In this document: in pieces, positions 10,498-50,990 of the stretch | Layout of the letters: each line of letters opens with the position of its first letter | Numbering within the stretch: the stretch's first letter is position 1 | DNA from: Parcubacteria group bacterium | Lineage (GTDB): Bacteria > Patescibacteriota > Patescibacteriia > Buchananbacterales > UBA6539 | DNA length: 64,000 nt | Assembly: GCA_002687175.1 (NCBI GenBank) | Contig: NYZP01000002.1 | Coordinates: forward strand, 1,171 to 65,170 | Direction of reading: 5' to 3' | Translations under genes and position numbers: made by a program | Notes under the pieces: generated by a model | What the model was told of the DNA's origin: nothing | Database searches by the model: none | The model's input: the letters and a program-made list of their open reading frames with translations, nothing else

Positions 10498-11853
10498 TTA
10501 ATTGTAAAGTCGCTCCTTAATCAACTTAACATCTTGGTTGATTTTCTCGTCTTCATCTAAAATTTTGGTAATTTTTAGATGAGCATGCATCGCGGTGGTG
10601 TGATCACGGTTTCCGATCTCTTGACCAATTGAGGGAAAAGAACTTTTTAATTCTACCCTCATTAAATACATGACAATTTGACGAGGCACCGCTAAATTCT
10701 TTTTTCGGCAGGAACCTAATAGGTCATCAATTTTAATATCAAAGAATTCAGCTACAATGTTAATTATTTGTTTAGGGGTTACTGATTTTTTACGCTGGGC
10801 CGAATAGATTGAAGACAAAATTTTTTTTACATTTTCTAAAATAGGTGCCGTACCATTTAATTGATGGTAGGCAATAATTTTATTTAAAGCACCTTCTAGC
10901 TCACGAACGTTGTTTTGCACATTAGTGGCGACATAAGCGATAGTTTCCTCATCAAGCTGGCAGTTCTTTTCCTTACATTTTGCTTTTAAAATAGCGGCCC
11001 TGGTTTCTAGATCTGGAGCAGAGATGTCAGCGATCATCCCCCACTCAAAACGTGAGATTAATCGACTTTCCATGGCTGGGATAGCCTTTGGTGCACGATC
11101 AGCAGTCATCACCACTTGTTTGTTGTTTTGGTGAAGGGCATTAAAGGTGTGAAAAAATTCTTCTTGAGTACTTTCTTTGCCTGCTAAAAATTGAACATCA
11201 TCAACTAACCAAACATCAGCTGAGCGATAAATATTTTTAAACTTATCAACTTTGTTAGTAGATATTGATTTTATGAAATCGTTGGTAAATTTTTCACAAG
11301 AGACATAAAGCACTCTTTTGTTAGGGGAACTTTCTAAGATTTTATTACCAATAGCCTGGGCTAAGTGAGTTTTACCAAGACCAACACCGCCATAAATAAA
11401 TAATGGGTTGTAAACTGCGCCTGGTTTCTCTGATATAGCTATGCTGGCAGCCTGAGCCAGCTCATTTCCTTTACCAATTACAAAATTATTAAACCCGTAG
11501 CGTTTATTAAGGCCAAATTCATTAATTCGGGGAGTTTCGGCAACAAATGTCTTGGCAATTTTCTCTTCAGCCTTTTTAATAATGATGTCGGCTTGATTTT
11601 TACCCTTAGTTTCCACCTGATAAGTAATAACCTTAACCTGATTATCAGTAATTTTCTGCAAGGCCTTGAGAATGGCGGAGTGGTACTTTTTTTCTAACCA
11701 GGCTTTAGTGAAAGTATTGGGTACACCAATGGTAATATTTTCACTATTGTAGGTATAGATAAAAGTATTTTTGAACCAAGTGGTAAAATTGGCTCGACTT
11801 AGGGTCAGCTCAAGCTCTCCTAGAGCTGCTTGCCAAATTTTTTGCTCCTCCAT
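10498..11853 (-). CDS. dnaA: Chromosomal replication initiator DnaA.
   Basis: AAA+ Walker A GVGLGKTHL and the C-terminal DnaA-box-binding HTH (RDHTTAMHA). Confidence 0.95.
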   Translation of the reverse strand: MEEQKIWQAALGELELTLSRANFTTWFKNTFIYTYNSENITIGVPNTFTKAWLEKKYHSAILKALQKITDNQVKVITYQVETKGKNQADIIIKKAEEKIAKTFVAETPRINEFGLNKRYGFNNFVIGKGNELAQAASIAISEKPGAVYNPLFIYGGVGLGKTHLAQAIGNKILESSPNKRVLYVSCEKFTNDFIKSISTNKVDKFKNIYRSADVWLVDDVQFLAGKESTQEEFFHTFNALHQNNKQVVMTADRAPKAIPAMESRLISRFEWGMIADISAPDLETRAAILKAKCKEKNCQLDEETIAYVATNVQNNVRELEGALNKIIAYHQLNGTAPILENVKKILSSIYSAQRKKSVTPKQIINIVAEFFDIKIDDLLGSCRKKNLAVPRQIVMYLMRVELKSSFPSIGQEIGNRDHTTAMHAHLKITKILDEDEKINQDVKLIKERLYN

Positions 11854-16101: not shown

Positions 16102-17097
16102 CTACTGTTTTATAACAAGCAAGTCAAATAACACCTCAGGATTAGTTTGACTTGTTTTTATTTTATAATCAATGGTCATCAAGTGATGATAAATTTTTTT
16201 CAGGTCGGCGACTTGATGGTTTCTGACCTGGGCAACAGTTTTTTTAATAACAAAAGGATGTAGGCCTAATTGATAGGTTAATCTGTTGGAGACATAGCCA
16301 CTACCGTTCTCTTCAACAAAATTTTTGACTAAAAGTAGATTTTTGAACTGCCAAATAATTTTAGATAGTAGCTCGGTTGGACTGGTACCGCTCTTCAGCT
16401 GGTCAGATATCAATTTTAAGGCCAGATGTTTATTTTTTTGGCCCAAGGCTTCGGTCAATCTAAAAATATCATCATCAAGCTTAGTTTTAACTAACTGCTC
16501 AACATCCTCTACGGTAATTTGTTTGTCTGGTGAGTAGGCTATCAGTTTATTGATCTCCGAATTCATCTGCCACAAGTTATTGCCCACTAGATCAGTAAGT
16601 AGTCTGGCGGCTCGTGGTTCAATTTCTCCGCCTCGGCTTTGAATTTCATTTGCCGTAAAACGATAAACCTCGGTTTCATCAAGTAGCTTAAACTCTTGGG
16701 CAAATTTTTCTTTTTGTAGTCGAGCTAAAAGCAGACCACTGCTTTTAGTACCAGCCTTGGACCTAGCTTTTTTGGTCTTGTCATTACCCAGCCCCCCTTC
16801 CCAAAAAACAATAACAGTATCCTTTGAACCATCTTTGTCCAAGACCTCCAGGACTTCTTCCTGGATTTTTTTCTTTTTGTTTTTGGAAATTAAGTCCTCC
16901 ACTATTATTAACCGTTTTTTGGCTAAAAATGGTGGAGCGGCGACTGATGTAGCAAATTGAGCAGTATCCAGTTTTGGACCATCAAGCGTTTCAATATTTA
17001 AAGCTGACTTATCAATATCAGCAATAAATTTGCCCTTAATGGCTTTAAGTTTTTGTCGTGATCTAAAGGTATCAGGGCCGTAAAGAAAGATAATCAT
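16102..17097 (-). CDS. holA: DNA polymerase III delta subunit.
   Basis: N-terminal IIFLYGPD motif and delta-subunit length and architecture. Confidence 0.7.
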   Translation of the reverse strand: MIIFLYGPDTFRSRQKLKAIKGKFIADIDKSALNIETLDGPKLDTAQFATSVAAPPFLAKKRLIIVEDLISKNKKKKIQEEVLEVLDKDGSKDTVIVFWEGGLGNDKTKKARSKAGTKSSGLLLARLQKEKFAQEFKLLDETEVYRFTANEIQSRGGEIEPRAARLLTDLVGNNLWQMNSEINKLIAYSPDKQITVEDVEQLVKTKLDDDIFRLTEALGQKNKHLALKLISDQLKSGTSPTELLSKIIWQFKNLLLVKNFVEENGSGYVSNRLTYQLGLHPFVIKKTVAQVRNHQVADLKKIYHHLMTIDYKIKTSQTNPEVLFDLLVIKQ

Positions 17098-19647: not shown

Positions 19648-22419
19648 TTATTGAATTGGGTTAAGACTGCCCCAATTGTTCCCTACTTCTATATGGGTCT
19701 CTACCGGAGTTTTTAGTTTATAAACTTCTTCCATTTTAGTTTCAACAAATTTGGCTACCTTTTTAAGGTCTTGGTCAGGCACTTCAAAAACCAGTTCATC
19801 ATGCACCTGGAGAATCATTTTAGTTTTTTCTGATATTTCTGGTAAACCTTTATCTATTTCAATCATCGCTAACTTCATCAAGTCAGCGGCAGTTCCTTGA
19901 ATGGGATGATTAATGGCTGCTCGCTCGGCTCCAGCCCTAACTTGTTGAATATTAGAATTTATTTCTGGTAAATAACGACGACGACCAAAAAAAGTTTCAA
20001 CATAACCTTTTTCGGTCGCTAGATCTTTAACATCTTCTAGGTAGTCGTTAATTTTAGAGTGAACATCAAAGTAACGACTAATAAAATCTCGGGCGTCTTG
20101 ATAGCTGATGTCAGCGGTTTGGGCTAGACCATGAGGACCCTGGCCATAAATAATTCCAAAATTAATTGCCTTGGCGGCATAGCGCATTGGTTTAGTAACT
20201 TTTTCTAAAGGCACCTCATTAATTTCAGCGGCGGTACGGCTGTGAATGTCTTCACCTTTTTTAAAACTATCAATCATTCTTTTGTCATTAGCCAGCGAAG
20301 CAATTATTCGTAGTTCAATTTGTGAATAGTCAGCCGACAGCAGTTTGAATCCTTTGGGAGCAATAAAACCTTTTCTAATTTGTTGTCCCAGCTCAGTTCT
20401 GATAGGGATATTTTGTAGATTTGGGTCTGATGAAGATAACCGACCAGTGGCAGCGACGGTTTGATTAAAGCTGGTGTGGATTCGATTGTTTGAATCAACC
20501 AGCTTTGGTAGAGCATCTAGGTAAGTTGATTTTAATTTAGCCAGCTCACGAAATTTTATAATGTGATCAACAATCTTATGTTCGCCCTGGAGTTTAATGA
20601 GCTCTGAAGCAGCAGTAGAGATACCAGTCTTGGTACGGGCCAGACCCTCGGTTGGAATTTTAAGTTTATCAAATAAAACCTCCTTAAGTTGTAGCGGTGA
20701 TGCAATGTTAAATTTGGTTTTGGCCAGTTTATGAATTTTGTTTTCTAAGGCTATTATGTCCTTGCCAACCTGGATACCCATTTTGTTGAGGAAAGCTGTA
20801 TCAATGAGTACACCATTTTTTTCGGTGTTAGCCAGCGCAGTAATCAGTGGGACTTCAATTTTTTCCAGTAAGCCCAAGTTATTTTTACTTTTTAATTCCT
20901 TGGTTAAACCAGCAACTAAACGCCAGGTAAAGTCCGCGTCTTCGCAAGCATAGTCGGCTACTTTATCAAGTGGTACTTCCTTCAAAGTAATTTGGTCTTT
21001 ACCCTTACCGATAAGATCAGTAATTGGTTGCATTTCATGCCCCAGTTCAGTAAACACTAGACCATCCAGGTTATGCTGTCTACTACCCGGATTAATTAGG
21101 TAAGAAGCAATCATGGTATCAAAAGATATCCCTTTTAATTCCAGCCCTGCGCTATTTAAGACTTCCAAATCAAATTTTATATTATGACCAATTTTTTTTA
21201 TTTTCTCATCAGCTAAAATGGGGCTGATTATTTCTAGCCAGGGTTTCTGAGCCGGTTCGCCTTGGCTCGCGCTCGGCGAGACAGGTAAATAATAAGCCGT
21301 ACCATTTTGCCAACAAAAACTGAGGCCTAAAAGTTCTGAATTAAATGGATCAAGACCGGAAGTTTCTGTATCAACAGCAAAAACCTTCTGGCTTTTTAGA
21401 TCATTAACAAATTTGGTAAAGTCAGCCTCTGTCTTGATCAGTGTATATTTTTCATTTTTTACAATTTTTGATTCAGCAGGTTTAGCAGTAGAGCCAAAGT
21501 TAAAACTGTCTTGAGCTTTAGTTTTGCCAGTTTGTAAATCTTTGGGTAACTTGGCAATGAGTGTCCGAAATTCTAACTCCTGAAATAGTGGCATTACTTT
21601 ACCAATATCATACTTTTCTATTTTGGCGTCAGACAACTTAAATTTAATTGGCACATCATCAACCAAGATGACTAATTTTTTTGACATCATTGCTTCTTTT
21701 TTTTGATCCTTTAGTAAACCACGATATCGATCAGATATTTTTTCAGAGTCAATGTTTTTATAAATATTGTCCAAAGTCTTAAACTCACTAAGTAAGTTAA
21801 TTGCCCCCTTGTCACCAATACCGCGAATCCCAGGAATATTGTCTGATGGGTCGCCCCGCAAAGCCTTGTAGTCAATCATTTGTTCCGGACCCAGGCCACC
21901 ATAACGACGCTTCACCGCCGCAATATCATAGGTAATGGTGTCGGACATCCCTTGGCGCATAGTAAAAACCTCGGTGTTATTATCAACTAGCTGTAAAGCA
22001 TCCATATCACCAGTCACAATAACCGACTTTATTTTTTCAACATCTTTGTCTTTAACTAAAGTAGCAATGACGTCATCAGCTTCATAACCTTTCTTTTCAT
22101 AAATTGGTATATTAAAAACAGAAATTATCTCCTTCACTCGAGGCAGTTGATCATAAAGCTCGTCTACTTGTTCAGCTCGGTGAGCCTTATAGTCTTCAAA
22201 CTGTTTATGGCGAAACGTTGGCGCCGCCAAATCAAAAGCCACGGCCATGTAATCTGGTTTCAAATCTTTTAAAACCTTAACCATGATCATTGTAAAACCA
22301 TAGACAGCATTTACTATCTCCCCAGATTTCGTGGAAAGGGTTGGCGGAATGGCATGCCAGGCGCGATGAAGTAAAGCATTCCCGTCTATTACTATAAATT
22401 TTTCTTTATTTTTTGACAT
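19648..22419 (-). CDS. polA: DNA polymerase I (5'-3' exonuclease, 3'-5' exonuclease-like and polymerase domains).
   Basis: Polymerase motifs A, B and C (DYSQIELR, RRAAKAINFGIIYG, QVHDELVFE) and an N-terminal FEN domain. Confidence 0.95.
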   Translation of the reverse strand: MSKNKEKFIVIDGNALLHRAWHAIPPTLSTKSGEIVNAVYGFTMIMVKVLKDLKPDYMAVAFDLAAPTFRHKQFEDYKAHRAEQVDELYDQLPRVKEIISVFNIPIYEKKGYEADDVIATLVKDKDVEKIKSVIVTGDMDALQLVDNNTEVFTMRQGMSDTITYDIAAVKRRYGGLGPEQMIDYKALRGDPSDNIPGIRGIGDKGAINLLSEFKTLDNIYKNIDSEKISDRYRGLLKDQKKEAMMSKKLVILVDDVPIKFKLSDAKIEKYDIGKVMPLFQELEFRTLIAKLPKDLQTGKTKAQDSFNFGSTAKPAESKIVKNEKYTLIKTEADFTKFVNDLKSQKVFAVDTETSGLDPFNSELLGLSFCWQNGTAYYLPVSPSASQGEPAQKPWLEIISPILADEKIKKIGHNIKFDLEVLNSAGLELKGISFDTMIASYLINPGSRQHNLDGLVFTELGHEMQPITDLIGKGKDQITLKEVPLDKVADYACEDADFTWRLVAGLTKELKSKNNLGLLEKIEVPLITALANTEKNGVLIDTAFLNKMGIQVGKDIIALENKIHKLAKTKFNIASPLQLKEVLFDKLKIPTEGLARTKTGISTAASELIKLQGEHKIVDHIIKFRELAKLKSTYLDALPKLVDSNNRIHTSFNQTVAATGRLSSSDPNLQNIPIRTELGQQIRKGFIAPKGFKLLSADYSQIELRIIASLANDKRMIDSFKKGEDIHSRTAAEINEVPLEKVTKPMRYAAKAINFGIIYGQGPHGLAQTADISYQDARDFISRYFDVHSKINDYLEDVKDLATEKGYVETFFGRRRYLPEINSNIQQVRAGAERAAINHPIQGTAADLMKLAMIEIDKGLPEISEKTKMILQVHDELVFEVPDQDLKKVAKFVETKMEEVYKLKTPVETHIEVGNNWGSLNPIQ

Positions 22420-22602: not shown

Positions 22603-23025
22603 ATGTCTTACCTAGGAACAATTTCATCTAGAGAATATAATGGATTAAAGCTGGCCATGCAGTTAGCTCAGACTTATTATGACCAAAAATCAATTTCTTT
22701 GGCTGATATAAGTAAATCTGAAAACATTTCTTTTAAATATTTGGAACAGTTAATTACCCCTTTTCGTCAGGCTGGCTGGATTAAAGCTCAGCGTGGACGA
22801 GGTGGTGGCTATGTTATGACCAAGGATCCTAAGACCATTTCTTTAAAGGAAATTATGAAGATGTTAAATGATGAGCCCAGGATGTTAGTTTGCCTGGAAG
22901 ATAATTATAAACATGATTGTCCATTAGATAGTGATTGTTCCTCTCAGTTAGTTTGGAAAGAAATTAAAAGTTCAATTGATAATTCATTAGAAAAAATTAC
23001 TTTGTCTAAAGTTTTAAAAAAATAA
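22603..23025 (+). CDS. Rrf2-family transcriptional regulator (IscR/SufR-like) preceding the suf operon.
   Basis: N-terminal wHTH and the Rrf2 pattern GGGYVMTKDP, placed upstream of sufC. Confidence 0.8.
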   Translation: MSYLGTISSREYNGLKLAMQLAQTYYDQKSISLADISKSENISFKYLEQLITPFRQAGWIKAQRGRGGGYVMTKDPKTISLKEIMKMLNDEPRMLVCLEDNYKHDCPLDSDCSSQLVWKEIKSSIDNSLEKITLSKVLKK

Positions 23026-23088
23026 TTCATTAAGATAATAAAGTTGGTCACTATTACGTTGGCCAGCTTAAATTAGTGGCAACAATTT

Positions 23089-23847
23089 ATGGCAAAATCA
23101 GTAAAAATAGTAAAGAAGAATTTAACCATTCAAAAGTTAAAGACCAGCATTAGCGGGAAATCAATTTTGCAAGGAGTCGATCTAGTCATTAGGCCAGGCA
23201 AGGTAGTGGCTTTGATGGGTACTAACGGTTCCGGCAAATCAACTCTGGCTCAAGTCTTAATGGGAAACCCAGAATATAAAATTGATTCTGGAAAAGTAAC
23301 CTGGCAGGGAAAAAATATATTAAAGTTAACTCCTGGAGATCGGGCCAAAATGGGACTGTTCATGTCATTTCAGTATCCTCATGAATTACCGGGAGTAAAC
23401 ATGTACGAATTTTTATCAACTTCTTATAAATCTATTTTTGGTGAAAAGATTCATCAAGCCAAATTTGAGACTGAGCTTAAAAAGGAAATGAAGACCTTAA
23501 AGTTATCAGATAAATATCTTGATCGTTCAGTTAACGATGGATTCTCTGGCGGGGAAAAGAAAAAGTCAGAAATTTTGCAGTTAAAATTGTTGCAGCCAAA
23601 AATGGCTATCTTGGACGAAACCGATTCTGGATTAGACATTGATGCTTTAAAATTAATTGCAAAAAATATTACTGCTCTGAGATCAAGCAGCCGAGGTTTT
23701 TTGGTAATTACTCATTATCAAAGATTGTTAAACTATATTAAACCTGATTATGTTCACGTAATGATGGATGGCAAGATTGTTAAAAGTGGTGGCCCAGGGC
23801 TTGCCAAAGTGTTAGAAAAAAAAGGGTACCATTGGTTAAAAAAATAG
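23089..23847 (+). CDS. sufC: Fe-S cluster assembly ATPase SufC.
   Basis: ABC ATPase with Walker A GTNGSGKST, signature LSGGEKK and the SufC-specific C-terminus. Confidence 0.9.
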   Translation: MAKSVKIVKKNLTIQKLKTSISGKSILQGVDLVIRPGKVVALMGTNGSGKSTLAQVLMGNPEYKIDSGKVTWQGKNILKLTPGDRAKMGLFMSFQYPHELPGVNMYEFLSTSYKSIFGEKIHQAKFETELKKEMKTLKLSDKYLDRSVNDGFSGGEKKKSEILQLKLLQPKMAILDETDSGLDIDALKLIAKNITALRSSSRGFLVITHYQRLLNYIKPDYVHVMMDGKIVKSGGPGLAKVLEKKGYHWLKK

Positions 23848-23859
23848 AAATTTAGATAT

Positions 23860-25257
23860 ATGCAAACAAAGACAATTAACATCAATCAAGCTAAATACAG
23901 TTTTAAAGACCCTCAAAATTATGTCTTTAAAACACCAAAGGGTTTAAATGAAAAAGTGATTAGACAGATTTCCAAACAAAAAAAAGAACCCAGCTGGATG
24001 CTAGATATTAGACTTAAAGCTTTTAAGGCATTTTTGAAAAAACCAATGCCTGAATGGGGTGGTAATTTGAAAGATATTGATTTTGATAATATTACTTATT
24101 ATATAAAACCATCAGATAAATCAGCCACCAGTTGGAATAAAGTACCCAAAAAAATTAAGAATACATTTGAACGTTTAGGAATCCCTCAAGCCGAACGTAA
24201 GTTTTTGGCCGGGGTTGGAGCTCAATATGAATCAGAGGTTATCTATCACAGTTTAAAAAAACGTTGGACTAAATTAGGTGTTATTTTTGCTGATATGTCC
24301 GAAGCCCCCAAACTTTATCCGGAGTTGGTTAAAAAGTATTTTGGTTCCTCTGTCCCCTATAATGACAATAAGTTTGCGGCTTTAAACACGGCGGCTTGGT
24401 CTGGTGGTTCATTTATTTATGTTCCAAAAGGTGTTCATGTTGAGGCGCCACTGCAAGCTTATTTCAGAATTAATGCCCCATCAATGGGACAGTTTGAGCG
24501 AACCCTTATCTTAGTTGATGAAGGAGCTTCAGTTCACTATATTGAAGGTTGCACTGCCCCAACTTATTCTAAAGATTCTTTGCACGCTGCCGTTGTAGAA
24601 TTAGTAGCAATGAAGAATTCTAAGGTTAGGTATACTACCATTCAGAATTGGTCCAGCAATGTTTACAATTTAGTGACTAAACGAGCCATTGCTCACGAAG
24701 GAGCTTTAGTAGAATGGGTTGATGGTAATCTGGGTTCAAAGCTAACTATGAAATACCCAGCAGTAATTTTGAAAGGTGAAGGATCTAAAGCTGACATACT
24801 ATCAATTGCCTTTGCCGGAGATAAACAACACCAGGATACGGGAGCCAAGGTAATTCATTTAGCTTCTAACACCACTTCTAATATTGTATCTAAATCAATT
24901 TCTAAAGATGGTGGAAGATCTTCTTATCGTGGGTTGGTTCAGGTTGCTAAACAGGCAAACAATTGTAAGGTAAAAGTAAATTGTGATGCCCTGCTAGTAG
25001 ATAAAAAATCTAGATCCGACACTTACCCGCTTATGAAAATTAATAACAAAAAAGTAACCGTTGAACATGAAGCTAGTGTTTCCAAGGTTAACGAAGAGCA
25101 GTTATTTTATCTAATGTCCCGTGGTTTATCACAGGAAGAAGCAGAAAGAATGATTGTCACCGGGTTTTTAGAAATTTTTGCCAAAGAATTACCCTTGGAG
25201 TATGCTGTTGAATTAAATAGACTTATTGAAATGGAGATGGAGGGCAGTGTTGGTTAA
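23860..25257 (+). CDS. sufB: Fe-S cluster assembly scaffold SufB.
   Basis: SufB/SufD beta-helix core and length, following sufC. Confidence 0.9.
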
Positions 25258-25262
25258 AAATT

Positions 25263-26234
25263 ATGCCTACAAAGACCAAGTCAAAGACCTTAAAATTTAC
25301 ACCACATGATCTGATACAACAGATTGAAGGGTATGAACAGCTTAAAGCCAAAGGGTTAACGGTGAACAGTTTAACCAAGGCCTCGGTTTTAGCTAAGAAA
25401 AAAATTGACAGATTTTTACCTAAGAAGCTGAAGTCTGTTTTGGTTATTGAAGTACCGGCCGAAACCGAAGCGGTTATTAAATTTACCAATCCCATTTTTT
25501 CTCTTAAAATTAATCTTTGTTTTGTGGTTGGTGCCAGAGCCAAAGTAACTATTTTTGATAATCAGCAACCAGCCCAAGATGCTAGCAATGAAGGCGGTGT
25601 ATATGCTATAGCAGACAAGGACAGTTTGGTTGACTATCTGATCGTCAACAGTAAGCAACCCAATACCCAGATGTTTTACGCTGCCTACCCCAGCCAAGGT
25701 ACTAAGTTTAACTGGTATTTAGTGGGTAAGCTTAACGGTGAAAAACATGATATTACGGTGGTAATTAATCATCTATTAGATAAGAGTTGGGGAACCATAA
25801 CTTCAGCCATTGATTTTGGTAAAAATTCAAAATCAATTGTTAAATTAATTAACAATCATCAAAGTAAAGGGAGTCAGGGTGATATTGTTTTTAAAGGCCT
25901 AGGAAAAGATAATGCTCGGGCCAGGATTGACGGCTTAATAGAAATTGGTAAAAAGGCAATTGATACCAATTCTTATTTACAAGAGGATGTTTTATTGGTT
26001 TCGCCAGGTAGTAATATTGATGCTCAACCAAATTTAGAGATTTTAAATAATGAAGTAAAGGCCTCTCATGGTGCAACTTTGGGAAGTGTTGATCCTAAGG
26101 TTTTGTTTTACTTAATGTCTCGAGGCCTTTCTGCCAGTCAAGCCGAGAAGCTTATCATCGGTGGTTTTTTAGGGAATATTACTCGTGATATTGAAAATGA
26201 GTTAGTGGCTGAACAGTTTAAAAATAGCTTGTAG
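25263..26234 (+). CDS. sufD: Fe-S cluster assembly protein SufD.
   Basis: Paralogous C-terminal region ([24 protein letters not shown]) resembling SufB, in operon position. Confidence 0.75.
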   Translation: MPTKTKSKTLKFTPHDLIQQIEGYEQLKAKGLTVNSLTKASVLAKKKIDRFLPKKLKSVLVIEVPAETEAVIKFTNPIFSLKINLCFVVGARAKVTIFDNQQPAQDASNEGGVYAIADKDSLVDYLIVNSKQPNTQMFYAAYPSQGTKFNWYLVGKLNGEKHDITVVINHLLDKSWGTITSAIDFGKNSKSIVKLINNHQSKGSQGDIVFKGLGKDNARARIDGLIEIGKKAIDTNSYLQEDVLLVSPGSNIDAQPNLEILNNEVKASHGATLGSVDPKVLFYLMSRGLSASQAEKLIIGGFLGNITRDIENELVAEQFKNSL

Positions 26235-26255
26235 CTTGTAGCTTGTAGCTTGTAG
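26224..26255. repeat. (TAGCTTG)x4 tandem heptamer overlapping the sufD stop, 15 nt upstream of the sufS ATG.
   Basis: Read directly. Places TAG in all three frames. Confidence 0.9.
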
Positions 26256-26269
26256 CTTGTAGGAATTTT

Positions 26270-27511
26270 ATGGCTAAGAAAAATATTAAAAATATCAAAA
26301 AGGATTTCCCAATTTTTAAGAATGTTAAAGTTCATGGCAAGGCATTTATTTATCTTGATTCAGGAGCCACCAGTCAGAAACCTAAAATGGTGGTTGAAGC
26401 CGAAGCCAACTGGTACAAAAAACATAACTCTAATATTCATCGGGGAGCCTACCAACTGGCTGAAGAAGCGACTGAGCTGTTTGAATCAACTAGGTCTAAA
26501 GTAGCTTCTTTCATAAAATCTAAAAGTCACGAGAATATTGTTTTTACCAAAGGGACTACTGATGGTATTAACTTAGTAGCTCAGTCGTGGGTTAAGCATA
26601 ATTTGAAACGTGGTGATACCATTTTAATTAGTGAGATGGAACATCATTCAAACATTGTACCTTGGCAACTGCTAGCCAAAGAAAAAGGCTTTAAGTTAAA
26701 GTTTTGGCCAGTGACTTCTGATGGTAAACTGGACATGACAAATATGAATAGTCTTTTTCGGGAAGTTAAATTTTTAAGCCTTATTCATGTCTCTAATGTT
26801 TTAGGGACAATTAATCCGGTGGAAGAGATTATTAAGAAAGCTCATCGTAAAAATATCAAAGTGTTGATTGATGCCGCCCAAAGTGTTCCCCACCGGCCAA
26901 TTGATGTTAGTAAGATGGATCCAGATTTTTTAGTGTTTTCATCCCACAAGATGCTGGGACCAACCGGTATTGGTGCTTTATACATTAAGCCAGCTCGCCA
27001 TAAAGAGGTTCGACCCTACCAAAGTGGCGGTGACATGATTTTAGAAGTTAAGCAGCAAGGTTCAACGTTTAAACCAGTGCCGGGAATATTTGAAGCCGGA
27101 ACACCAGCCTTAGCTCAAGTTTTTGCTTTTGGCAAAGCCATAGATTATTTAAATAGCGTGGGGATGCAAAATGTTTTACGTCACGAAAAGTCTTTGGTAC
27201 AATATGCTTATCAGAAGCTGTCAGCCATTCCGGAAGTAACTATTTATGGCCCTAAACCAGCAAATCGTTCTGGTCTGGTCAGTTTTACGGTCAAAGGCAT
27301 TCATGCTCATGACTTAGCAACGTTTTTAGACAAAGAAGGTGTTGCTATTCGAGCTGGTCACCACTGTGCCATGCCGCTGCATCATAAATTAAAAATTGAT
27401 GCTACAGCTAGAGCCAGTTTTTATATCTATAACACTAAACAAGACGTTGATAAGTTAGCTAAGGCATTACAATTAATTCTCAAACAATGGCAGAGCTCTA
27501 TAAACAAGTAG
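26270..27511 (+). CDS. sufS: Cysteine desulfurase SufS.
   Basis: Class V aminotransferase with PLP-lysine region SSHKMLGPTGIG and catalytic Cys region RAGHHCA. Confidence 0.9.
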   Translation: MAKKNIKNIKKDFPIFKNVKVHGKAFIYLDSGATSQKPKMVVEAEANWYKKHNSNIHRGAYQLAEEATELFESTRSKVASFIKSKSHENIVFTKGTTDGINLVAQSWVKHNLKRGDTILISEMEHHSNIVPWQLLAKEKGFKLKFWPVTSDGKLDMTNMNSLFREVKFLSLIHVSNVLGTINPVEEIIKKAHRKNIKVLIDAAQSVPHRPIDVSKMDPDFLVFSSHKMLGPTGIGALYIKPARHKEVRPYQSGGDMILEVKQQGSTFKPVPGIFEAGTPALAQVFAFGKAIDYLNSVGMQNVLRHEKSLVQYAYQKLSAIPEVTIYGPKPANRSGLVSFTVKGIHAHDLATFLDKEGVAIRAGHHCAMPLHHKLKIDATARASFYIYNTKQDVDKLAKALQLILKQWQSSINK

Positions 27512-27867
27512 TTTTTCGACACTACAAAAGTCCGTTGAATAAACGTAAATTGATCAAACCATCTAAGAAATTTAGAGGGGTTAATCCTTTTTGTGGTGAC
27601 AGTCTGGAAATTTTTGTTAAGTTAGATAAGAGTAAAAAGATTAAAGAAATTGGCTGGGAGGGCAAAGGCTGTACCATTTCTCAAGCCTCGGCTTCTATTT
27701 TAACTGAAATGATGAAAGGTAAATCTTTGGAGCAAATTAAAAAGATTAAAAGTGGTCAGTTTTTAAAGAATTTAAATATGAATTTATCACCATCCCGTCG
27801 CAAGTGTGCTTTACTTTCTTTGTATACCATTAAAGAACTGGACATTACTGATCAGGAAGCAGTTTAA
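27487..27867 (+). CDS. sufU: SUF-type NifU/SufU Fe-S scaffold protein.
   Basis: Conserved Cys ligands (NPFCGD, GKGCTISQAS, RRKCA). Confidence 0.8.
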   Translation: MAELYKQVVFRHYKSPLNKRKLIKPSKKFRGVNPFCGDSLEIFVKLDKSKKIKEIGWEGKGCTISQASASILTEMMKGKSLEQIKKIKSGQFLKNLNMNLSPSRRKCALLSLYTIKELDITDQEAV

Positions 27868-27912
27868 TTAAGTTTATTATAATTCAGGTTTGATTAACCT
27901 GTTTTTTATTAA

Positions 27913-27945
27913 ATAAAAAAGCGCGAGTTGATTGTTCTCAAAACG
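27913..27945 (-). terminator. Terminator for the convergent minus-strand pentapeptide/dapA-like operon.
   Basis: On the minus strand: stem cagcgcg...cgcgct followed by a T6 run. Confidence 0.5.
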
Positions 27946-27995
27946 CGCTGTGTATGTCCTGTTGGACAAGACTCTGATTAAGCGTAGAGTCTTTT

Positions 27996-28331
27996 CTATT
28001 CTTCCTCGACCGTAAAGGCCAGTGCTTTTACCATTGCTATGGCCTGGTCAGGGTTTATCCTGGTGCCCTGTACATTTGCAAAAGCTAGGTTCGCTCCCTC
28101 CAGATTTGCTCCTCTGAGATCCGCTGAAACAAGACTAACATTTCTTAGATCCGCGTCTCTTAGATCCGCGTCTCTCAGATCTGCGCCCCGCATGGATGGT
28201 ATCCACCTACGGTCTTTCTTTCTCAAACCTGCATTTCGAGCAGCGTTAAACCGCGGAACGTCCTTTCTCAGTTCGTCAGCCAATTCTTGATATCCAAGAT
28301 TAACCCAATCTACTTCTGTCGCGGTACCCAT
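27996..28331 (-). CDS. Pentapeptide-repeat protein (mid-GC island).
   Basis: Consecutive A(D/N)LxxA(D/N)L pentapeptides (GADLRDADLRDADLRNVSLVSADLRGANLEGANLAFANVQG). Confidence 0.75.
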   Translation of the reverse strand: MGTATEVDWVNLGYQELADELRKDVPRFNAARNAGLRKKDRRWIPSMRGADLRDADLRDADLRNVSLVSADLRGANLEGANLAFANVQGTRINPDQAIAMVKALAFTVEEE

Positions 28332-28380
28332 TTTTATCAGTCTCCTTTTCCGTTATTTGTTTTAGTTTTCTGAAAAGAGC

Positions 28381-29475
28381 TTAGGCGCAAAGTTCACTCC
28401 AGATACGGTGATCCATCAGACGTTTGGCAATATCCACTTCGTAGAACTCCTCAATTGGCTGAAGGATTTCCGGGCTTTCGGTCCAGACAATGTTCAAAGC
28501 ACCGCAAACCCTATCAACGGCTGACACGGACATCTTGCCAAGGGGCATTCGGAGAAACCCGGTGTCCATTCCCAGTCCGGCCATCATCGTTTGGATTGGA
28601 CAGGGGTTAGGGAATTTGTCTTCCACCATGACTTTTTGACCGTGGAATTCTACTTCTCGCTGCACACTCACCCCCACTAAACCGAACAGTGGTTTAAGCT
28701 GGCCGGCCAATTTTTGACCTGTTTGACTGTCACCAGATTGAAAGGCCGCCACCATCTTAGCCACTGCTGCTGGGGCAATGTTACTGATAACCGAGACAAC
28801 ACCGTTACCGTTGATGAGTGGGTCAGTCATCATTGATCCAGTGATTGAATCATCGCCACTCATAATGGAAAACTGTCGTCCGTCGATCATGTTTACGAAA
28901 CGTCGGGTTTCTTGCATGTTTGATAAACTACCAGTGGCTTCTTTGACTCCAATAACATTTGGCCACTGCTCTGCCAAAATTGCCAGATCAACTGGCATAA
29001 GCTGGCAGTTGGTTCGTCCCGGTATGGCATATACTACGTAGCCAACATCGGGGTAAGCGTCGGCCAATGTTCCGGCAATCGGACTGTGGTACTGGTCTCG
29101 CAGTTGTATTGAGGCTGGTTTGTTATAATAACAATCAACCAACAGTACCACATCGGCTCCGTCTCTGGCAGCCGCAGTTGCCATTTCCATGGCCTCCAAA
29201 GTTGAATTTGATCCAGCACCGGCCCAGGCTTGAATTTGCTTGGACGTAATCTCCGCGACAAGCCGGTTTAACTTGATGTGCATTCCTGGATCAACCGTTG
29301 GAGAACAAAACGTTGTCCCTAAAGACAGAACTCCAGTGACACCTTGCGCCATTTGAAACTCAACGTTTCTTTCCAGCTGCTTGCAGTCTTCTTTGCCCTC
29401 AAGATTCAGTGGACCAATCAAGGCAGTTACTGCTCCATTACAGATCATAACTATAACCTCCTGTTGAATTCTCAA
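28381..29475 (-). CDS. DapA-family lyase (4-hydroxy-tetrahydrodipicolinate synthase/NAL superfamily, mid-GC island). The likely start is the second Met at about 29448.
   Basis: DapA-like motifs GTTFCSP (vs GTTGE), CYYNKP (vs PYYN) and the Schiff-base lysine motif VIGVKEATG. AGGAGG RBS 7 nt before the ATG of MICNGA. Confidence 0.8.
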   Translation of the reverse strand: MRIQQEVIVMICNGAVTALIGPLNLEGKEDCKQLERNVEFQMAQGVTGVLSLGTTFCSPTVDPGMHIKLNRLVAEITSKQIQAWAGAGSNSTLEAMEMATAAARDGADVVLLVDCYYNKPASIQLRDQYHSPIAGTLADAYPDVGYVVYAIPGRTNCQLMPVDLAILAEQWPNVIGVKEATGSLSNMQETRRFVNMIDGRQFSIMSGDDSITGSMMTDPLINGNGVVSVISNIAPAAVAKMVAAFQSGDSQTGQKLAGQLKPLFGLVGVSVQREVEFHGQKVMVEDKFPNPCPIQTMMAGLGMDTGFLRMPLGKMSVSAVDRVCGALNIVWTESPEILQPIEEFYEVDIAKRLMDHRIWSELCA

Positions 29476-29818
29476 CGTTTTTTATTCCTGATGGAATGAT
29501 TTACCTTAGTTCAAATATGACCTTTTGTCAACCACAGTCGCTCGAGAGCGACGTGGTCAATATCCTTGTAATTTAATGAGTAAACCCGCCACCTTCTACA
29601 ATGTGACGAGGTAAACAAAAAACTGCCTGTCCAAGCAGATTATTTTGTACCAACTTAGTAAAAAGGTAATCAACCTGGACTAGAAGTCCGGTTTCCTAAC
29701 CTTTCCGTCGGAGACGAGATGCGCCTTCGGCGATTTGTTGTTAGCACAGTAATTCATATAATTAGATTATCATTACCCTAGTTTTTCGTCAATATAAATG
29801 TTAAAATATGAGTAAATT

Positions 29819-32188
29819 ATGTATTTGCACAAGATAGAAATCCAGGGATTTAAATCATTTGCCCAAAAAACTACTTTAGAATTTCCACGGCCTGGAGCAG
29901 GCTGTGCTTTAATTATAAACGGTGAAACAACCAACAAAGGCACTCAACTAAAAGACGGAACTTGTGGCATTGCCTGTGTCGTTGGCCCTAACGGTGCTGG
30001 TAAATCAAACATTGTTGATGCCATTCGCTGGGTTTTGGGTGAACAAAGTTTAAAAAGCCTCCGTGGTAAAAAAGCGGAGGATGTTATTTTTTCTGGTTCA
30101 GAGCAGAAGTCTCGTTTAGGTATGGCTCAGGTATCAATGTATATTAACAATGAAGATGGGGCGATGCCCGTTGATTATAAAGAAGTGACAATTTCTCGAA
30201 AGGTATTTCGTAATGGAGAAAGTGAATACCGAATTAACAAAAGTAAAGTCCGTTTGGCTGATGTGTTGTTGCTAGTAGCCAAATCAAACTTTGGCCAGAA
30301 AAGTTACAGTATTGTTTCTCAAGGGTCGATTGATCAAGTGATTATGGCTAACCCCCACGAACGTAAAGATTATTTCGATGAAGCTGTTGGAGTTAAACAG
30401 TTTCAGTTGCAACGTGATCAGTCTCTCAATAAATTAGAAAGTGCTTGGAATAATTTACGTCAGGTTGATGCCTTATTGACGGAAATCAAACCTCGGCTTA
30501 ATTCTTTAACTCGTCAGGTAAAACGTTTAGAAAAAAGAGAGAAGGTAGAGGCCGAGCTGAAAGATGTTCAACAAAAATATTATGGTTGGCAGTGGCAGAA
30601 ATTGAGCCAAGAGATTAAAAAATTAAAGCCCGATCTAGACGAAGGTGAGAAGAACTTGTCCGACCGAACTAAGGAACTCAAAGACTTACAAAAGCAGCTA
30701 CAGTCTTTAGAGAAAGAAGATTCTCGTAGTAAAGTATTTAATGATTTACAACAAAAATATCAAAAGGTTTTAGATCAAAGGAATAAGCTTAAAGAAGAGC
30801 AATTAATTTTACAAAACAAGATTGAGCTGGCTAAACAACGCTTAACCGAAAAAGCCGTTCCCATGGCATTACCGGAGATTGTCAGCAGCCTAAAAGATAT
30901 CGATAAGCTGGAACAAAAAATAATTAGTAGTTTAGATTCGAAAGATTTAGCTAAGCAATCTCAACTTAAAGAAGATGTTAAAGAGCTGGGTCGGTTAATT
31001 AAAGATATTCTGGATAAGTTAGAAAACCCAAAAGTTAAACAACAGGTTAAAGCTGACCTTGATAAAGATTTGGTAAATGATCTTAAAGAAGTAGAAAAAG
31101 ATTTTACAACGATTGAACATCAGTTGGATCAGGCCAGAAAGGCCGTTGATAATTTTAACCAGCAAGAAGAGCAGAAAAAGGGAAAGTTTTTTGATATCCA
31201 GCACAAAATTAACAGTAAGCAAAATCAGTACAATAAATTAGCCGGTGAAGTTTCAGAAATGCGGGTGGAGATGGCTAAGCTGGAAACTCATCAACAAGAT
31301 TTAAAGCGAGAGATTCGAGAAGAAATGAATAGTACCAGTTGGCTAGAGGGCAATAAAGCTGAAAGAGTGAATGAAGAAGAACAGCACTCAGAAATGATTA
31401 GACTAAAACGTCAGCTAGAGCTTATTGGAGGGGTTGATCCGGAAACAATAAAAGAACACAAAGAAACCAAGGAACGACATGATTTTTTGGATGAACAGGC
31501 CGAAGATCTGCGCAAGTCCATTAACTCACTGGAGAAAATTATTAACGAACTTGATGATAAAATTCAGGTTCAGTTTGATCACGCTTTTAAAAGTATTAAT
31601 AAAGAGTTCTCCAAGTTTTTCAAAATATTATTTGGCGGTGGTAAGGCTGAACTGATGTTGATTAAAGAAGAAAATAAACCAGAAGAGAAGTCTCAGCTAG
31701 TTAATGAGGGAGAAGAAGGGGTTGAAGGAGATCCTGAAACAAGTTCAGGATCAATTTTACAAACTTTAACTGAGGCTGAAGATAATTTAAGTCCTAAGAG
31801 ACTTTTAAAGAAAAAAACCGGCAAGGTTATTGCTGGCATTGATATTATTGCCACGCCTCCGGGCAAGAAGGTATCGTCAATCAGCATGCTTTCAGGTGGT
31901 GAACGGTCATTGTCTTCGATTGCTTTGATCTGTGCAGTGATTGCTAATAACCCGTCACCATTTGTTATTTTAGACGAAGTTGATGCCGCTTTAGACGAAG
32001 CCAACTCGCAGAGGTTTGCTAAGATATTAAATGAACTGGCTCATAAAACTCAATTCATTGTTATTACCCACAACCGGGCCACTATGCACCAGGCCGATAT
32101 TTTGTATGGGGTAACTATTGGCGATGATGGTATTTCTAAATTAATTGGTTTAAAACTTGAACAGGCCAAGCAGATTGTGAGGCAATAA
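29819..32188 (+). CDS. smc: Shortened SMC-like chromosome-partition ATPase.
   Basis: N-terminal Walker [12 protein letters not shown], long coiled-coil region, C-terminal signature [13 protein letters not shown] and Walker [11 protein letters not shown]. At 789 aa it is only about two-thirds of a typical SMC. Confidence 0.8.
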
Positions 32189-40949: not shown

Positions 40950-42431
<1,482 letters not shown>

Positions 42432-50684: not shown

Positions 50685-50960
50685 TGCTAACATTGAATAA
50701 CTTTAACAACTTTAAAATCTATGAACAGGAATAGTAGGTTTTGATCTGTAATAATAGAGAGCCGGGAATGGTGGAAGCCTGGCATTACCACAAAACTGAA
50801 ACGAGCCTGGGAGATGGTTTGGTGAACATTAATTAGCCAAACCCGGCAGCGTCCGTAATCAAGCGTTAACTATTATCGCTTTGTCATTCTGAACTTGATT
50901 CAGGATCTCATTGGACTGAGATAGTGAAAGCGAACAAAATTTACCGTTTACTTGACGGTT

Positions 50961-50990
50961 TTTTTGTTAATAAAGGTGGTACCGCGGACC
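50961..50990 (+). terminator. Rho-independent terminator closing a roughly 250-nt noncoding transcript downstream of clpP.
   Basis: Stem accgtttacttgacggt followed by a T7 run. Confidence 0.5.

What the first reader, a model, noticed from the sequence alone, without database searches (positions are those of the whole stretch)
27913..29760. Foreign-looking two-gene operon of a DapA-family lyase and a pentapeptide-repeat protein, with a long structured 5' leader.
The DapA-like protein retains the Schiff-base lysine (VKEATG) and the YYN triad region but has GTTFC in place of GTTGE. CPR-type genomes normally lack lysine biosynthesis, so the gene may act on another 2-keto-3-deoxy substrate, NAL/KDG-aldolase-like. 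The co-transcribed pentapeptide-repeat protein (Qnr/MfpA-like fold) is an odd partner. The minus-strand leader runs about 280 nt (29476-29760). It contains a TTGACA promoter-like hexamer and a stem-loop plus U-run (ctgcttggacaggcag-TTTTTT) that could be an attenuator.
Basis: partly seen in the sequence, partly recalled or inferred. Interest (0 to 1): 0.55.

Follow-up and report, generated by a model that had tools for sequence, protein, structure and literature searches.

The report
Lysine-codon leader attenuator before dapA
The gene pair is not foreign: the enzyme gene is this bacterial group's own lysine-pathway gene dapA in its usual place, and its "leader" is a conserved on/off RNA switch containing a tiny lysine-rich reading frame, which looks like a lysine-sensing attenuator of a kind I found no description of for lysine genes or for these ultra-small bacteria.

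Summary

**Not supported: a foreign NAL/KDG-type aldolase.**
- The gene belongs to a widespread ~350-aa "long-form" DapA clade.
- In other lineages this clade sits next to dapB, dapF and lysA, and behind lysine riboswitches (12 of 38 loci scanned).
- In Patescibacteria it occupies a conserved SMC<->dapA->polA position.
- It is 6-22 GC points richer than its neighbours in all 10 Patescibacteria loci, so the GC excess is a trait of the gene.
- GTTFC is real and unique: all 119 relatives have GTTGE.

**PRP gene.** The 111-aa pentapeptide-repeat gene is a species-specific orphan with about nine repeats. It is not Qnr-like.

**Supported and extended: the attenuator idea.** The leader is conserved in three distant Patescibacteria species, always upstream of dapA. 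It contains:
- a sigma-70 promoter;
- an ATG exactly 6 nt after the -10 element, suggesting a leaderless transcript;
- an 18-25-codon Lys-rich ORF (NKKVKK, or K..KVRK in the window);
- an anti-antiterminator (P1/P2);
- a 13-14-bp antiterminator;
- an intrinsic terminator.

Rfam has no match. The best reading is a ribosome-mediated, Lys-tRNA-sensing attenuator (confidence ~0.5).

The parts
29764..29792 (-). Leader promoter: TTGACG, 17-nt spacer with TGn, TAATCT
   Evidence: It aligns with TTGACA-N17-TAAATT of L016 and TTGACA-N16-TAAGCT of L101. In L016 this promoter is orthologous to the dapA promoter of L098, which lacks the element. The generic promoter scan did not call it.
29680..29757 (-). 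Leader ORF, 25 codons plus TAG: MNYCANNKSPKAHLVSDGKVRKPDF. Lys codons are at 29736-29734, 29727-29725, 29703-29701 and 29694-29692. The ATG starts 6 nt after the -10, so the transcript is predicted to be leaderless.
   Evidence: Homologous ORFs are MKKCAENKKVKKPDPLSR (L016) and MNYSSDNKKVKKSDLKSR (L101). The ATG is 6 nt after the -10 in all three. The 30-nt indel is in frame. Differences fall at codon positions 1/2/3 as 9/6/22. Lys enrichment gives P = 0.036, 1.4e-4 and 4e-3.
29704..29733 (-). 30-nt in-frame insertion, specific to the window, that forms two small hairpins and splits the Lys-codon run
   Evidence: It is absent from L016 and L101 and forms hairpins in the MFE fold.
29647..29747 (-). 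P1 closing helix (GUGCUAAC 29747-29740 with GUUGGUAC 29654-29647). Together with P2 it forms the anti-antiterminator.
   Evidence: It is kept in all three species with different sequences. Two of the six pairs show compensatory changes.
29662..29704 (-). P2 hairpin (5' strand 29704-29685 lies inside the ORF; 3' strand 29681-29662). The stop codon sits at its loop/3' strand junction.
   Evidence: The lower and upper stems are 92-100% paired in three species. There is one compensatory G-C to A-U pair, and the bulged A is conserved.
29629..29680 (-). Antiterminator: region 2 (GUCCAGGUUGAUUA, 29680-29667) pairs with region 3 (UAAUCUGCUUGGAC, 29642-29629)
   Evidence: The window has 13 bp with one U-U mismatch (-15.2 kcal/mol). 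L016 has 13 contiguous bp and L101 has 14. Across species 97% of cells are paired, against 18-44% when the partner is slid. Shuffles reach the observed duplex energy in 4 of 2000 (window) and 0 of 2000 (L016).
29617..29638 (-). Intrinsic terminator CUGCUU-GGAC-AGGCAG plus U6
   Evidence: Found by the terminator scan. It is conserved with one-sided changes that keep pairing. It is weaker here (-5.7 kcal/mol) than in L016 (-12.0) or L101 (-12.8).
29532..29556 (-). Strong hairpin / DNA palindrome CCACGTCGCTC-TC-GAGCGACTGTGG abutting the second -35 element; role unknown
   Evidence: Seen in the MFE and centroid folds. It is not conserved in L016 or L101.
29503..29531 (-).
   Evidence: Read from the sequence. 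L099's dapA promoter uses the same -10, TAAGGT. The counterpart is weaker in L101 and there is no good one in L016. The consensus scan did not call it.
28381..29448 (-). dapA, long-form 4-hydroxy-tetrahydrodipicolinate synthase homologue (355 aa), with GTTFC in place of GTTGE
27996..28331 (-). Orphan pentapeptide-repeat protein (111 aa, about 9 repeats) with a 15-nt tandem repeat x2.9 at 28143-28185
27914..27995 (-). Structured 3' UTR: three hairpins, the last (27949-27920) followed by U6, forming the operon terminator
   Evidence: The fold has z = -7.1.

Best explanation
**The locus.** 27914-29792(-) is this organism's native dapA transcription unit. A species-specific small PRP gene is appended to it, and a transcription attenuator precedes it.

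**The leader.** Transcription starts from TTGACG-N17-TAATCT, at or next to the A of an AUG (predicted leaderless). A 25-codon Lys-rich leader ORF is translated while RNA polymerase moves on. Steps marked (inferred) below are not shown by any result.

**Lys-tRNA plentiful (inferred).**
1. The ribosome runs to the UAG at the start of region 2 and covers region 2.
2. Alternatively, with no ribosome present, P1/P2 sequester region 2.
3. In either case the 3:4 terminator forms and transcription stops at 29617.

**Lys-tRNA scarce (inferred).**
1. The ribosome stalls on the K-V-R/K-K codons, which lie in the 5' strand of P2.
2. Region 2 is then free to pair with the 5' half of the terminator in a 13-bp antiterminator.
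3. Polymerase reads through into dapA and the PRP gene.

**Shown.**
- Conservation of the element.
- The three alternative helices and their geometry.
- A coding-like substitution pattern in the leader ORF.
- Membership of the DapA clade and that clade's link to the lysine pathway.

**Inferred.**
- The transcription start site.
- Translation of the ORF.
- Lysine as the signal.
- Read-through into dapA.

**The window's copy looks partly eroded.** The Lys run is split by a 30-nt insertion, one K has become R, the antiterminator has a U-U mismatch, the terminator is weak, and a promoter-like site lies downstream of the terminator.
For: **The element is conserved upstream of dapA**
1. It occurs in three species whose DapA proteins are only about 48-50% identical, always upstream of dapA on the dapA strand. 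Covariance-model scores are 223, 185 and 95 bits.
2. The L016 promoter in front of the element is orthologous to the promoter that directly drives dapA in sister locus L098. The element therefore lies within the dapA leader.

**The three alternative helices**
3. The P1/P2/terminator structure is 96% paired with 3 compensatory pairs.
4. The antiterminator is 97% paired, against 18-44% when the partner is slid. Shuffles reach its duplex energy in 4 of 2000 (window) and 0 of 2000 (L016).
5. Constraint folding selects the antiterminator when the RNA 5' of region 2 is blocked. It selects the terminator when region 2 is blocked. This holds in all three sequences.

**Signs that the ORF is translated and Lys-related**
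6. The ATG is exactly 6 nt after the -10 in all three. The indel is in frame. Differences at codon positions 1/2/3 are 9/6/22. N and Y are kept through synonymous changes. Lys counts are 4/24, 6/17 and 5/17.
7. The stop codon lies at or inside region 2 in all three.

**The regulated gene fits a lysine signal**
8. The same gene family is lysine-regulated elsewhere: Rfam Lysine riboswitches lie directly upstream in 12 of 38 loci.
9. dapB is within 3.5 kb in 16 loci, and lysA and dapF are adjacent in some.

**Precedents for leaderless leader-peptide attenuators**
10. S. meliloti trpL (PMC10117765) and mycobacterial poly-Cys sORFs (bioRxiv 10.1101/834739).
Against: - Only three sequences are known, and they are related by descent, so the statistics are weak.
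- The antiterminator shows no double compensatory change.
- There is no Shine-Dalgarno sequence, so translation depends on a predicted leaderless start.
- The window peptide has only two Lys plus one Arg at the critical site. Lys-rich ORFs are also fairly likely in AT-rich DNA (P = 0.036 for the window).
- 115-170 nt separate the terminator from the dapA start codon. In the window this stretch holds a good promoter-like site (TTGACA-N17-TAAGGT) that could make dapA independent of the leader.
- Six other species with the same synteny lack the element (L001, L007, L014, L097, L098, L099).
- No dapB or dapF was found in the 64-kb window, so a complete lysine pathway in this organism is unproven.
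- The window's DapA lacks the GxxGE motif.
Confidence: 0.5

Rival explanations
1. The element is a translation-independent attenuator. In this reading a new riboswitch, or a target of an RNA-binding protein or tRNA, has P1/P2 as its sensor. When the ligand is bound, P1/P2 is stabilised and the terminator can form.
For: The same three alternative helices would serve such a switch. P1 closes a multi-stem domain with conserved internal-loop nucleotides (UARRAA / WGAUUA). Lysine riboswitches control the same gene family elsewhere.
Against: There is no Rfam hit at E<=10. The conserved unpaired nucleotides are explained by the N-K-K-V-K-K codons and by antiterminator pairing. Third-codon-position bias (22 of 37 differences), the fixed -10-to-ATG spacing, the in-frame 30-nt indel and the placement of the stop codon are not expected for a non-coding aptamer. 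The core is very small, and the window tolerates a 30-nt insertion in it.
Confidence: 0.15
2. The upstream unit is an independent small gene with its own promoter and terminator, encoding either an 18-25-aa protein or an sRNA. It is merely linked to dapA, which is transcribed from the TTGACA-N17-TAAGGT promoter downstream of the terminator.
For: There is a promoter-like site downstream of the terminator in the window, and a weaker one in L101. The ORF shows a coding-like substitution pattern. A long spacer separates the terminator from dapA.
Against: A free-standing small gene does not need a conserved 13-14-bp helix that destroys its own terminator, nor pairing of its coding region with its 3' UTR. 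L016 has no convincing second promoter, and its upstream promoter is the orthologue of L098's dapA promoter. The covariance model found the element nowhere else in about 700 kb of held sequence.
Confidence: 0.15
3. The operon was recently acquired from elsewhere, and its DapA-family enzyme acts on another 2-keto-3-deoxy substrate (NAL/KDG-aldolase-like) together with a Qnr/MfpA-like PRP.
For: GC is 0.49 against 0.38 for the window. The GxxGE carboxylate-binding motif is broken (GTTFC), uniquely among 120 family members. The protein scores below the TIGR00674 cut-off, at 163 against 206 bits. No dapB or dapF is present in the window. The PRP is specific to this species.
Against: SMC-dapA-polA synteny is conserved. 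The high GC is a property of dapA in all 10 Patescibacteria loci. 76 of 80 family-conserved columns are intact, including the Schiff-base Lys, the Tyr/Thr triad and the DHDPS-specific Arg. nanA scores 52 bits against a cut-off of 382, and KDG aldolase 32 against 390. All of the top 50 structural neighbours are DHDPS. The PRP has about 9 repeats and scores 17-27 bits against Qnr/MfpA cut-offs of 240-360.
Confidence: 0.07

Closest known systems
Ribosome-mediated (leader-peptide) attenuators of amino-acid operons: trpL, hisL, leuL, thrL, pheL. The closest are the leaderless trpL/rnTrpL of Sinorhizobium meliloti and the leaderless poly-Cys sORF attenuators of mycobacteria.
   Same: It has a short ORF carrying codons of the pathway's end product. 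It has 1:2 / 2:3 / 3:4 alternative helices ending in an intrinsic terminator. The stop codon is next to region 2. It lies upstream of a biosynthetic gene. The ORF is leaderless, starting at the 5' AUG, as in S. meliloti trpL (PMC10117765) and mycobacteria (10.1101/834739).
   Different: The regulatory codons are lysine. I found no described lysine-codon attenuator for a lysine-biosynthesis gene in the paper library, and none is in Rfam 15. The host is Patescibacteria (CPR). The spacer between terminator and gene is long, with a possible second promoter. No experimental support exists.
Lysine riboswitch (L-box, Rfam RF00168)
   Same: It occupies the same position (the 5' leader of dapA) and has the same presumed logic of shutting off when lysine is sufficient. 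It controls members of the same long-form dapA clade in Desulfobacterota and relatives.
   Different: There is no sequence or structure match. The element is about 135 nt with a coding ORF, rather than a 180-nt five-helix aptamer.
DapA / DHDPS (4-hydroxy-tetrahydrodipicolinate synthase, EC 4.3.3.7; PF00701, TIGR00674)
   Same: It shares the TIM-barrel fold, the Schiff-base Lys (VKEATG), Tyr (YAIPGRT), YYN, Thr-Thr and the substrate Arg. Clade members have lysine-pathway genomic context.
   Different: The long-form clade has an 18-20-residue beta-hairpin insertion (model residues 269-288) and a C-terminal extension of about 40 aa. No solved structure of this form appears among the PDB matches, whose chains are 289-330 aa. 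The window protein alone has GTTFC instead of GTTGE. It scores below the equivalog cut-off.
Qnr / MfpA pentapeptide-repeat proteins
   Same: It contains A(D/N)LXX pentapeptide repeats (PF00805).
   Different: It has only about 9 repeats (roughly two coils) in 111 aa, against about 200 aa for Qnr/MfpA. It scores far below all Qnr/MfpA cut-offs. Its N- and C-terminal parts have no homologues. It has no gyrase or topoisomerase context.

Membership tests
DapA / DHDPS | PF00701 domain over the whole length and a DHDPS-type fold | tested here: met
   Pfam scores 1e-47 over residues 13-319. The AF2 model has pLDDT 92. All of the top 50 PDB neighbours are DHDPS, with target-normalised TM 0.89-0.95.
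DapA / DHDPS | Catalytic set: Schiff-base Lys (KEATG), Tyr133 (Y-x-x-P-x-R-T), Tyr107 (YYN), Thr44/45, and Arg138 for aspartate semialdehyde | tested here: met
   All are aligned and present, and invariant across 23 clade members.
DapA / DHDPS | GxxGE alpha-keto-acid carboxylate-binding motif, conserved in all NAL/DHDPS enzymes (PMC5380162) | tested here: not met
   The window has GTTFC, while all 119 other clade members have GTTGE (GTTGES in 118, GTTGET in P0019). The sequence is verified in five independent assemblies.
DapA / DHDPS | NCBIfam TIGR00674 equivalog cut-off | tested here: not met
   It scores 163.4 bits against a cut-off of 206.15. It is still the best-scoring family by 50 bits.
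DapA / DHDPS | Genomic or regulatory link to lysine/DAP synthesis | tested here: inconclusive
   The clade meets this: dapB is within 3.5 kb in 16 loci, lysA and dapF are adjacent in some, and Lysine riboswitches occur in 12 of 38 loci. For this organism, no dapB or dapF is present in the 64-kb window and the rest of the genome is not available. The Lys-rich leader is indirect support.
DapA / DHDPS | Condensation of pyruvate and L-aspartate semialdehyde | not testable with these tools
   An enzyme assay or complementation is needed.
NAL / KDG-aldolase branch of the superfamily | Match to nanA, KdgD or archaeal KDG-aldolase models, or closest structures from these branches | tested here: not met
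   nanA scores 52 bits against 382, KdgD 48 against 374, and KDG aldolase 32 against 390. None of the top 50 structural hits is a non-DHDPS enzyme.
Leader-peptide transcription attenuator | Short upstream ORF enriched in codons of the cognate amino acid | tested here: met
   Lys counts are 4/24, 6/17 and 5/17, with NKKVKK in two species and K..KVRK in the window. Binomial P values are 0.036, 1.4e-4 and 4e-3.
Leader-peptide transcription attenuator | Intrinsic terminator, plus an overlapping antiterminator, plus an anti-antiterminator that includes ORF sequence | tested here: met
Leader-peptide transcription attenuator | The ORF is actually translated | tested here: inconclusive
   Codon-position bias is 9/6/22, the indel is in frame and the -10-to-ATG spacing is fixed. 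There is no SD sequence and no expression data.
Leader-peptide transcription attenuator | Read-through responds to the charged-tRNA level | not testable with these tools
   Needs in vivo or in vitro coupled transcription-translation.
Lysine riboswitch RF00168 | Match to the covariance model | tested here: not met
   No hit in 27000-30500 at E<=10. The same model scores 87-105 bits in 12 other dapA leaders.
Qnr / MfpA-type PRP | Family HMM above its cut-off, and about 8-9 coils of repeats | tested here: not met
   MfpA scores 26.5 bits against 360 and Qnr 17.5 against 240. There are about 9 repeats only. The structure model is unusable, with pLDDT 43.

The most novel reading that the evidence does not exclude
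The leader is the first lysine-specific, ribosome-mediated, leaderless attenuator, and the first sign that CPR bacteria use coupled transcription-translation to sense tRNA charging. In this particular species the system may be escaping lysine control while the enzyme changes function. The signs are: loss of the superfamily-wide GxxGE motif together with T12G and K286Q, a split Lys-codon run, a mismatched antiterminator, a weakened terminator, a promoter-like site downstream of the terminator, and a newly added PRP partner.
Probability: 0.15. Interest if true: 0.75.

Novelty: new variant of a known kind. Interest (0 to 1): 0.62.

Why it matters
**Lysine regulation.** Lysine biosynthesis genes are known to be controlled by L-box riboswitches and protein regulators. 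I found no leader-peptide attenuator reading lysine codons for a lysine-biosynthesis gene in Rfam 15 or in the paper library searched. If this one is real, it would add lysine to the amino acids known to be sensed by classical attenuation.

**CPR biology.** It would also be a regulatory RNA mechanism in Patescibacteria. These organisms are uncultivated and have minimal genomes, and I know of no regulatory RNA described for them. It would imply coupled transcription-translation, leaderless initiation, and that at least some of them make diaminopimelate or lysine on demand rather than only scavenging it.

**A convergent solution.** The same gene family is controlled by a lysine riboswitch in Desulfobacterota and by this element in Patescibacteria. 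That would be two different solutions to one regulatory problem.

**The enzyme.** The long-form DapA clade is widespread, has no solved structure of this form, and scores below NCBI's equivalog cut-off. The GTTFC variant is a natural test of how essential the GxxGE motif is.

Tried and rejected
1. **Rfam on the leader.** A scan at E<=10 gave nothing in the leader.
2. **Strain variation for covariation.** Five other assemblies of the locus are 100% identical, so they carry no information. The L016 copies are also identical.
3. **Metagenome pattern scan.** GGTTANNAANCCGG...AGGTNGATTACC re-found only the L016 contig.
4. **Viral-contig pattern scan.** It gave two hits, both chance matches inside coding sequence and not recognised by the covariance model.
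5. **Covariance-model search of held sequence.** Model R1 found no further copies in about 700 kb of held loci or elsewhere in the window.
6. **Analogous designs at other loci.** A search for a Lys-rich sORF plus terminator upstream of dapA in the other loci returned only L016.
7. **Fragment homology search for other GTTFC proteins.** It found no candidates and did not even recover the protein itself, so it is uninformative.
8. **AF2 model of the PRP.** Built from a single sequence, it is unusable at pLDDT 43.
9. **PADLOC.** No hit for either protein.
10. **HMM search for dapB and dapF in the window.** Nothing found. Ten further window ORFs of suitable size are all housekeeping genes.
11. **SRP RNA, 6S RNA or a known riboswitch.** I considered these for the conserved RNA and rejected them: there is no Rfam match, no GNAR tetraloop, and the coding signature points elsewhere.
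Full report
**1. Observation**

- The minus strand of 27913-29795 carries two ORFs.
  - A DapA-family protein runs 28381-29475 from a TTG. ATG 29448 is preferred as the start. It has AGGAGG 8 nt upstream and matches the 355-aa NCBI model P0001, named [quoted passage not shown].
  - A 111-aa pentapeptide-repeat protein (PRP) lies 49 nt downstream, at 27996-28331.
- Pfam gives DHDPS at 1e-47 and Pentapeptide at 8.8e-18.
- GC is 0.49 for both genes against 0.38 for the window.
- The stem-loop plus U-run at 29638-29617 is the only minus-strand terminator-like site in the region.
- TTGACA is at 29531-29526.
- The leader folds better than shuffles (z = -3.0).
- Five independent assemblies from different samples carry the locus at 100% identity. 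The sequence, including GTTFC, is therefore not an assembly artefact.
- The 3' end is a strongly structured terminator region (z = -7.1).

**2. The enzyme gene is native, not foreign**

The closest relative in 5.8 billion proteins is only 54% identical. Even so, synteny is conserved.
- In Patescibacteria loci L001 (P0002, 54%), L007 (P0072, 44%), L014, L016 and L097, the gene is divergent from SMC.
- In most of these loci polA, holA and rpsT follow.
- The window shows the same order in reverse: holA 16102-17097, polA 19648-22419, then dapA and SMC 29819-32188.
- The Rrf2-sufCBDSU operon and the PRP gene are intercalated between polA and dapA.

dapA is 6-22 GC points above its surroundings in all 10 Patescibacteria loci measured. 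The "foreign" composition is a property of the gene in this clade.

**3. It is a long-form DapA**

- The relatives form a widespread clade of about 345-370 aa. It occurs in Patescibacteria, Armatimonadota, Planctomycetota, Desulfobacterota, Latescibacterota, Bathyarchaeia, Altiarchaeota, Methanocella and others.
- The clade shares an insertion before the NPxxxK motif and a C-terminal extension of about 40 aa.
- In the AF2 model (pLDDT 92) the insertion is a beta-hairpin at residues 269-288.
- All of the top 50 PDB structural neighbours are DHDPS, with target-normalised TM 0.89-0.95. All 60 listed PDB sequence hits are DHDPS.

Genomic context ties the clade to lysine synthesis.
- dapB lies within 3.5 kb in 16 loci. 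One of these is a Saccharibacteria locus where it is directly downstream; there TIGR00036 scores 146 bits against a cut-off of 122.
- lysA-dapF lies upstream in L041, and dapF is adjacent in others.
- An Rfam Lysine riboswitch (87-105 bits) lies immediately upstream of the gene in 12 of 38 loci scanned.

The nanA, KdgD and KDG-aldolase models score far below their cut-offs.

**4. What remains odd about the enzyme**

- Against 80 columns conserved in at least 93% of 120 clade members, the window protein departs at four: T12G, G47F, E48C and K286Q.
- That count is not unusual, since others depart at up to 7 columns.
- G47F/E48C destroy the GxxGE motif, which the literature describes as the alpha-keto-acid carboxylate-binding motif conserved in all NAL and DHDPS enzymes (PMC5380162).
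- The Schiff-base Lys, both Tyr, Thr-Thr and the DHDPS-specific Arg are intact.
- The protein scores 163 bits on TIGR00674, against a cut-off of 206.
- No dapB or dapF is present in the 64-kb window.
- Whether the enzyme is active as DapA cannot be decided here.

**5. The PRP**

- It has about nine A(D/N)LXX repeats between unique N- and C-terminal segments.
- Homologues match only through the repeats.
- A 15-nt tandem repeat x2.9 shows recent internal duplication.
- It scores 17-27 bits against Qnr and MfpA cut-offs of 240-360.
- It never neighbours dapA in any other species.
- It has no PADLOC hit, and the single-sequence model is unusable.
- It is best described as a species-specific orphan, appended to the dapA unit, of unknown role.

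**6. The leader is the real finding**

Comparing SMC-dapA intergenic regions showed that the window's leader aligns with that of Buchananbacteria locus L016 (DapA 48% identical). A covariance model built from the two then found a third copy upstream of dapA in L101 (P0006), at 95 bits and E = 4e-16.

All three copies share the following, in 5'-to-3' order.
- (a) A promoter, TTGAC(G/A)-N16/17-TA(A/T)nnT, with an upstream TGn.
- (b) An ATG exactly 6 nt after the -10, which is where transcription should start.
- (c) A short ORF:
  - window: MNYCANNK-SPKAHLVSDG-KVRKPDF
  - L016: MKKCAENKKVKKPDPLSR
  - L101: MNYSSDNKKVKKSDLKSR
- (d) A closing helix, P1.
- (e) A hairpin, P2, whose 5' strand is the K-V-K/R-K-P/S-D coding segment.
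- (f) The stop codon, at or inside the 3' strand of P2.
- (g) A terminator, CUGC(U/C)U-GGAC-(A/G)GGCAG plus U6-7.

Evidence for alternative structures:
- The 3' strand of P2 (GUCYAGGUWGAUU) is complementary to the 5' half of the terminator and its upstream flank.
- This gives 13 bp with one mismatch in the window, 13 bp in L016 and 14 bp in L101.
- Shuffles of the upstream sequence reach that duplex energy in 4 of 2000 (window) and 0 of 2000 (L016).
- On the model-based alignment, the P1/P2/terminator structure is 96% paired with three compensatory pairs.
- The antiterminator is 97% paired, against 18-44% when slid, but shows no double changes.
- Constraint folding reproduces the classical logic in all three. 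Blocking the RNA 5' of region 2 (a ribosome stalled on the Lys codons) yields the antiterminator. Blocking through region 2 (a ribosome at the stop codon) yields the terminator.

Evidence that the ORF is coding:
- Pairwise differences fall at codon positions 1/2/3 as 9/6/22.
- N2 and Y3 are kept between the window and L101 through synonymous changes in an unpaired segment.
- The window's 30-nt insertion is in frame.
- Lys is enriched, with binomial P values of 0.036, 1.4e-4 and 4e-3.

Evidence that the element is part of the dapA leader:
- In L016 the promoter in front of the element is the orthologue of the promoter that directly precedes dapA in sister locus L098, which lacks the element.

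**7. Mechanism proposed**

This is ribosome-mediated attenuation that reads lysine codons on a leaderless leader ORF.
- With enough Lys-tRNA, or with no translation, region 2 is covered or sequestered, and the terminator forms.
- With scarce Lys-tRNA, the ribosome stalls in region 1. Region 2 pairs with region 3, and polymerase reads into dapA and the PRP gene.

The architecture and its conservation are shown. The start site, translation, the lysine signal and read-through are inferred.

Precedents for leaderless leader-peptide attenuators exist: S. meliloti trpL (PMC10117765) and mycobacterial poly-Cys sORFs (bioRxiv 10.1101/834739). I found no lysine-codon attenuator described for a lysine-biosynthesis gene in the library. 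Rfam 15 has no matching family.

**8. Caveats and rivals**

- Three related sequences give weak statistics.
- Six species with the same synteny lack the element.
- The terminator lies 115-170 nt from the dapA start codon.
- A translation-independent switch and an independent small gene therefore remain possible, at about 0.15 each.
- The window's copy looks degraded compared with the other two:
  - split Lys run and one K changed to R;
  - a U-U mismatch in the antiterminator;
  - a terminator of -5.7 against about -12 kcal/mol;
  - the bypass promoter.
- Together with the GxxGE loss and the added PRP, this leaves open that this species is uncoupling the gene from lysine control.

**9. Verdict**

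- The enzyme and its location are ordinary, apart from the unique GTTFC.
- The PRP is an uninformative orphan.
- The leader is a conserved, previously uncatalogued attenuator. It is most likely a lysine-codon leader-peptide attenuator, which would be a new variant of a known mechanism in a lineage where I know of no described regulatory RNA.

Noticed in passing
window 50712-51026 (+), ORF to 51577: A T-box leader (Rfam 126.7 bits, gathering score 93) sits directly upstream of an ORF whose only Pfam hit is a GNAT acetyltransferase, just after clpP. A T-box in front of a GNAT rather than an aminoacyl-tRNA synthetase or an amino-acid gene is unusual, and so is a T-box in a Parcubacteria genome. 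The specifier codon was not read.
   Followed up: partly
L016:3090-3255 and L098:460-580: A long inverted repeat, CTTG(C/T)CCCGCACCAAGCC ... GG(A/G)C(T)TTGGTGCG(CGG)G, flanks about 110-150 nt just upstream of the dapA promoter. It is conserved between two Buchananbacteria-like species. Its function is unknown.
   Followed up: no
window 29532-29556 (-): A near-perfect palindrome/hairpin, CCACGTCGCTC-TC-GAGCGACTGTGG, lies immediately upstream of the second -35 element. It could be an operator or an RNA hairpin. It is not conserved in the other two species.
   Followed up: partly
loci L014-L093 (long-form DapA clade): A widespread DapA clade of about 350 aa has a beta-hairpin insertion and a C-terminal extension of about 40 aa. 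The window member scores below the TIGR00674 equivalog cut-off. No solved structure of this form appears among the PDB hits. In Latescibacterota a GTP-type PEP carboxykinase-like gene lies between dapA and dapB (L058, L086, L093).
   Followed up: partly
L001:5810-5900: The SMC-dapA intergenic region of this relative is filled with imperfect tandem copies of GCAAGT(T/A)(A/G)G... that form a long hairpin. This differs from the window's leader.
   Followed up: no
window 22603-27867 (+): A complete Rrf2-regulator-sufC-sufB-sufD-sufS-sufU operon is inserted between polA and dapA, relative to the gene order in related Patescibacteria.
   Followed up: partly
window 9040-11853 (-): dnaN and dnaA lie here, so the window probably includes the chromosomal origin region. 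A 16S rRNA gene is at 40951-42429, followed by a tRNA cluster.
   Followed up: no
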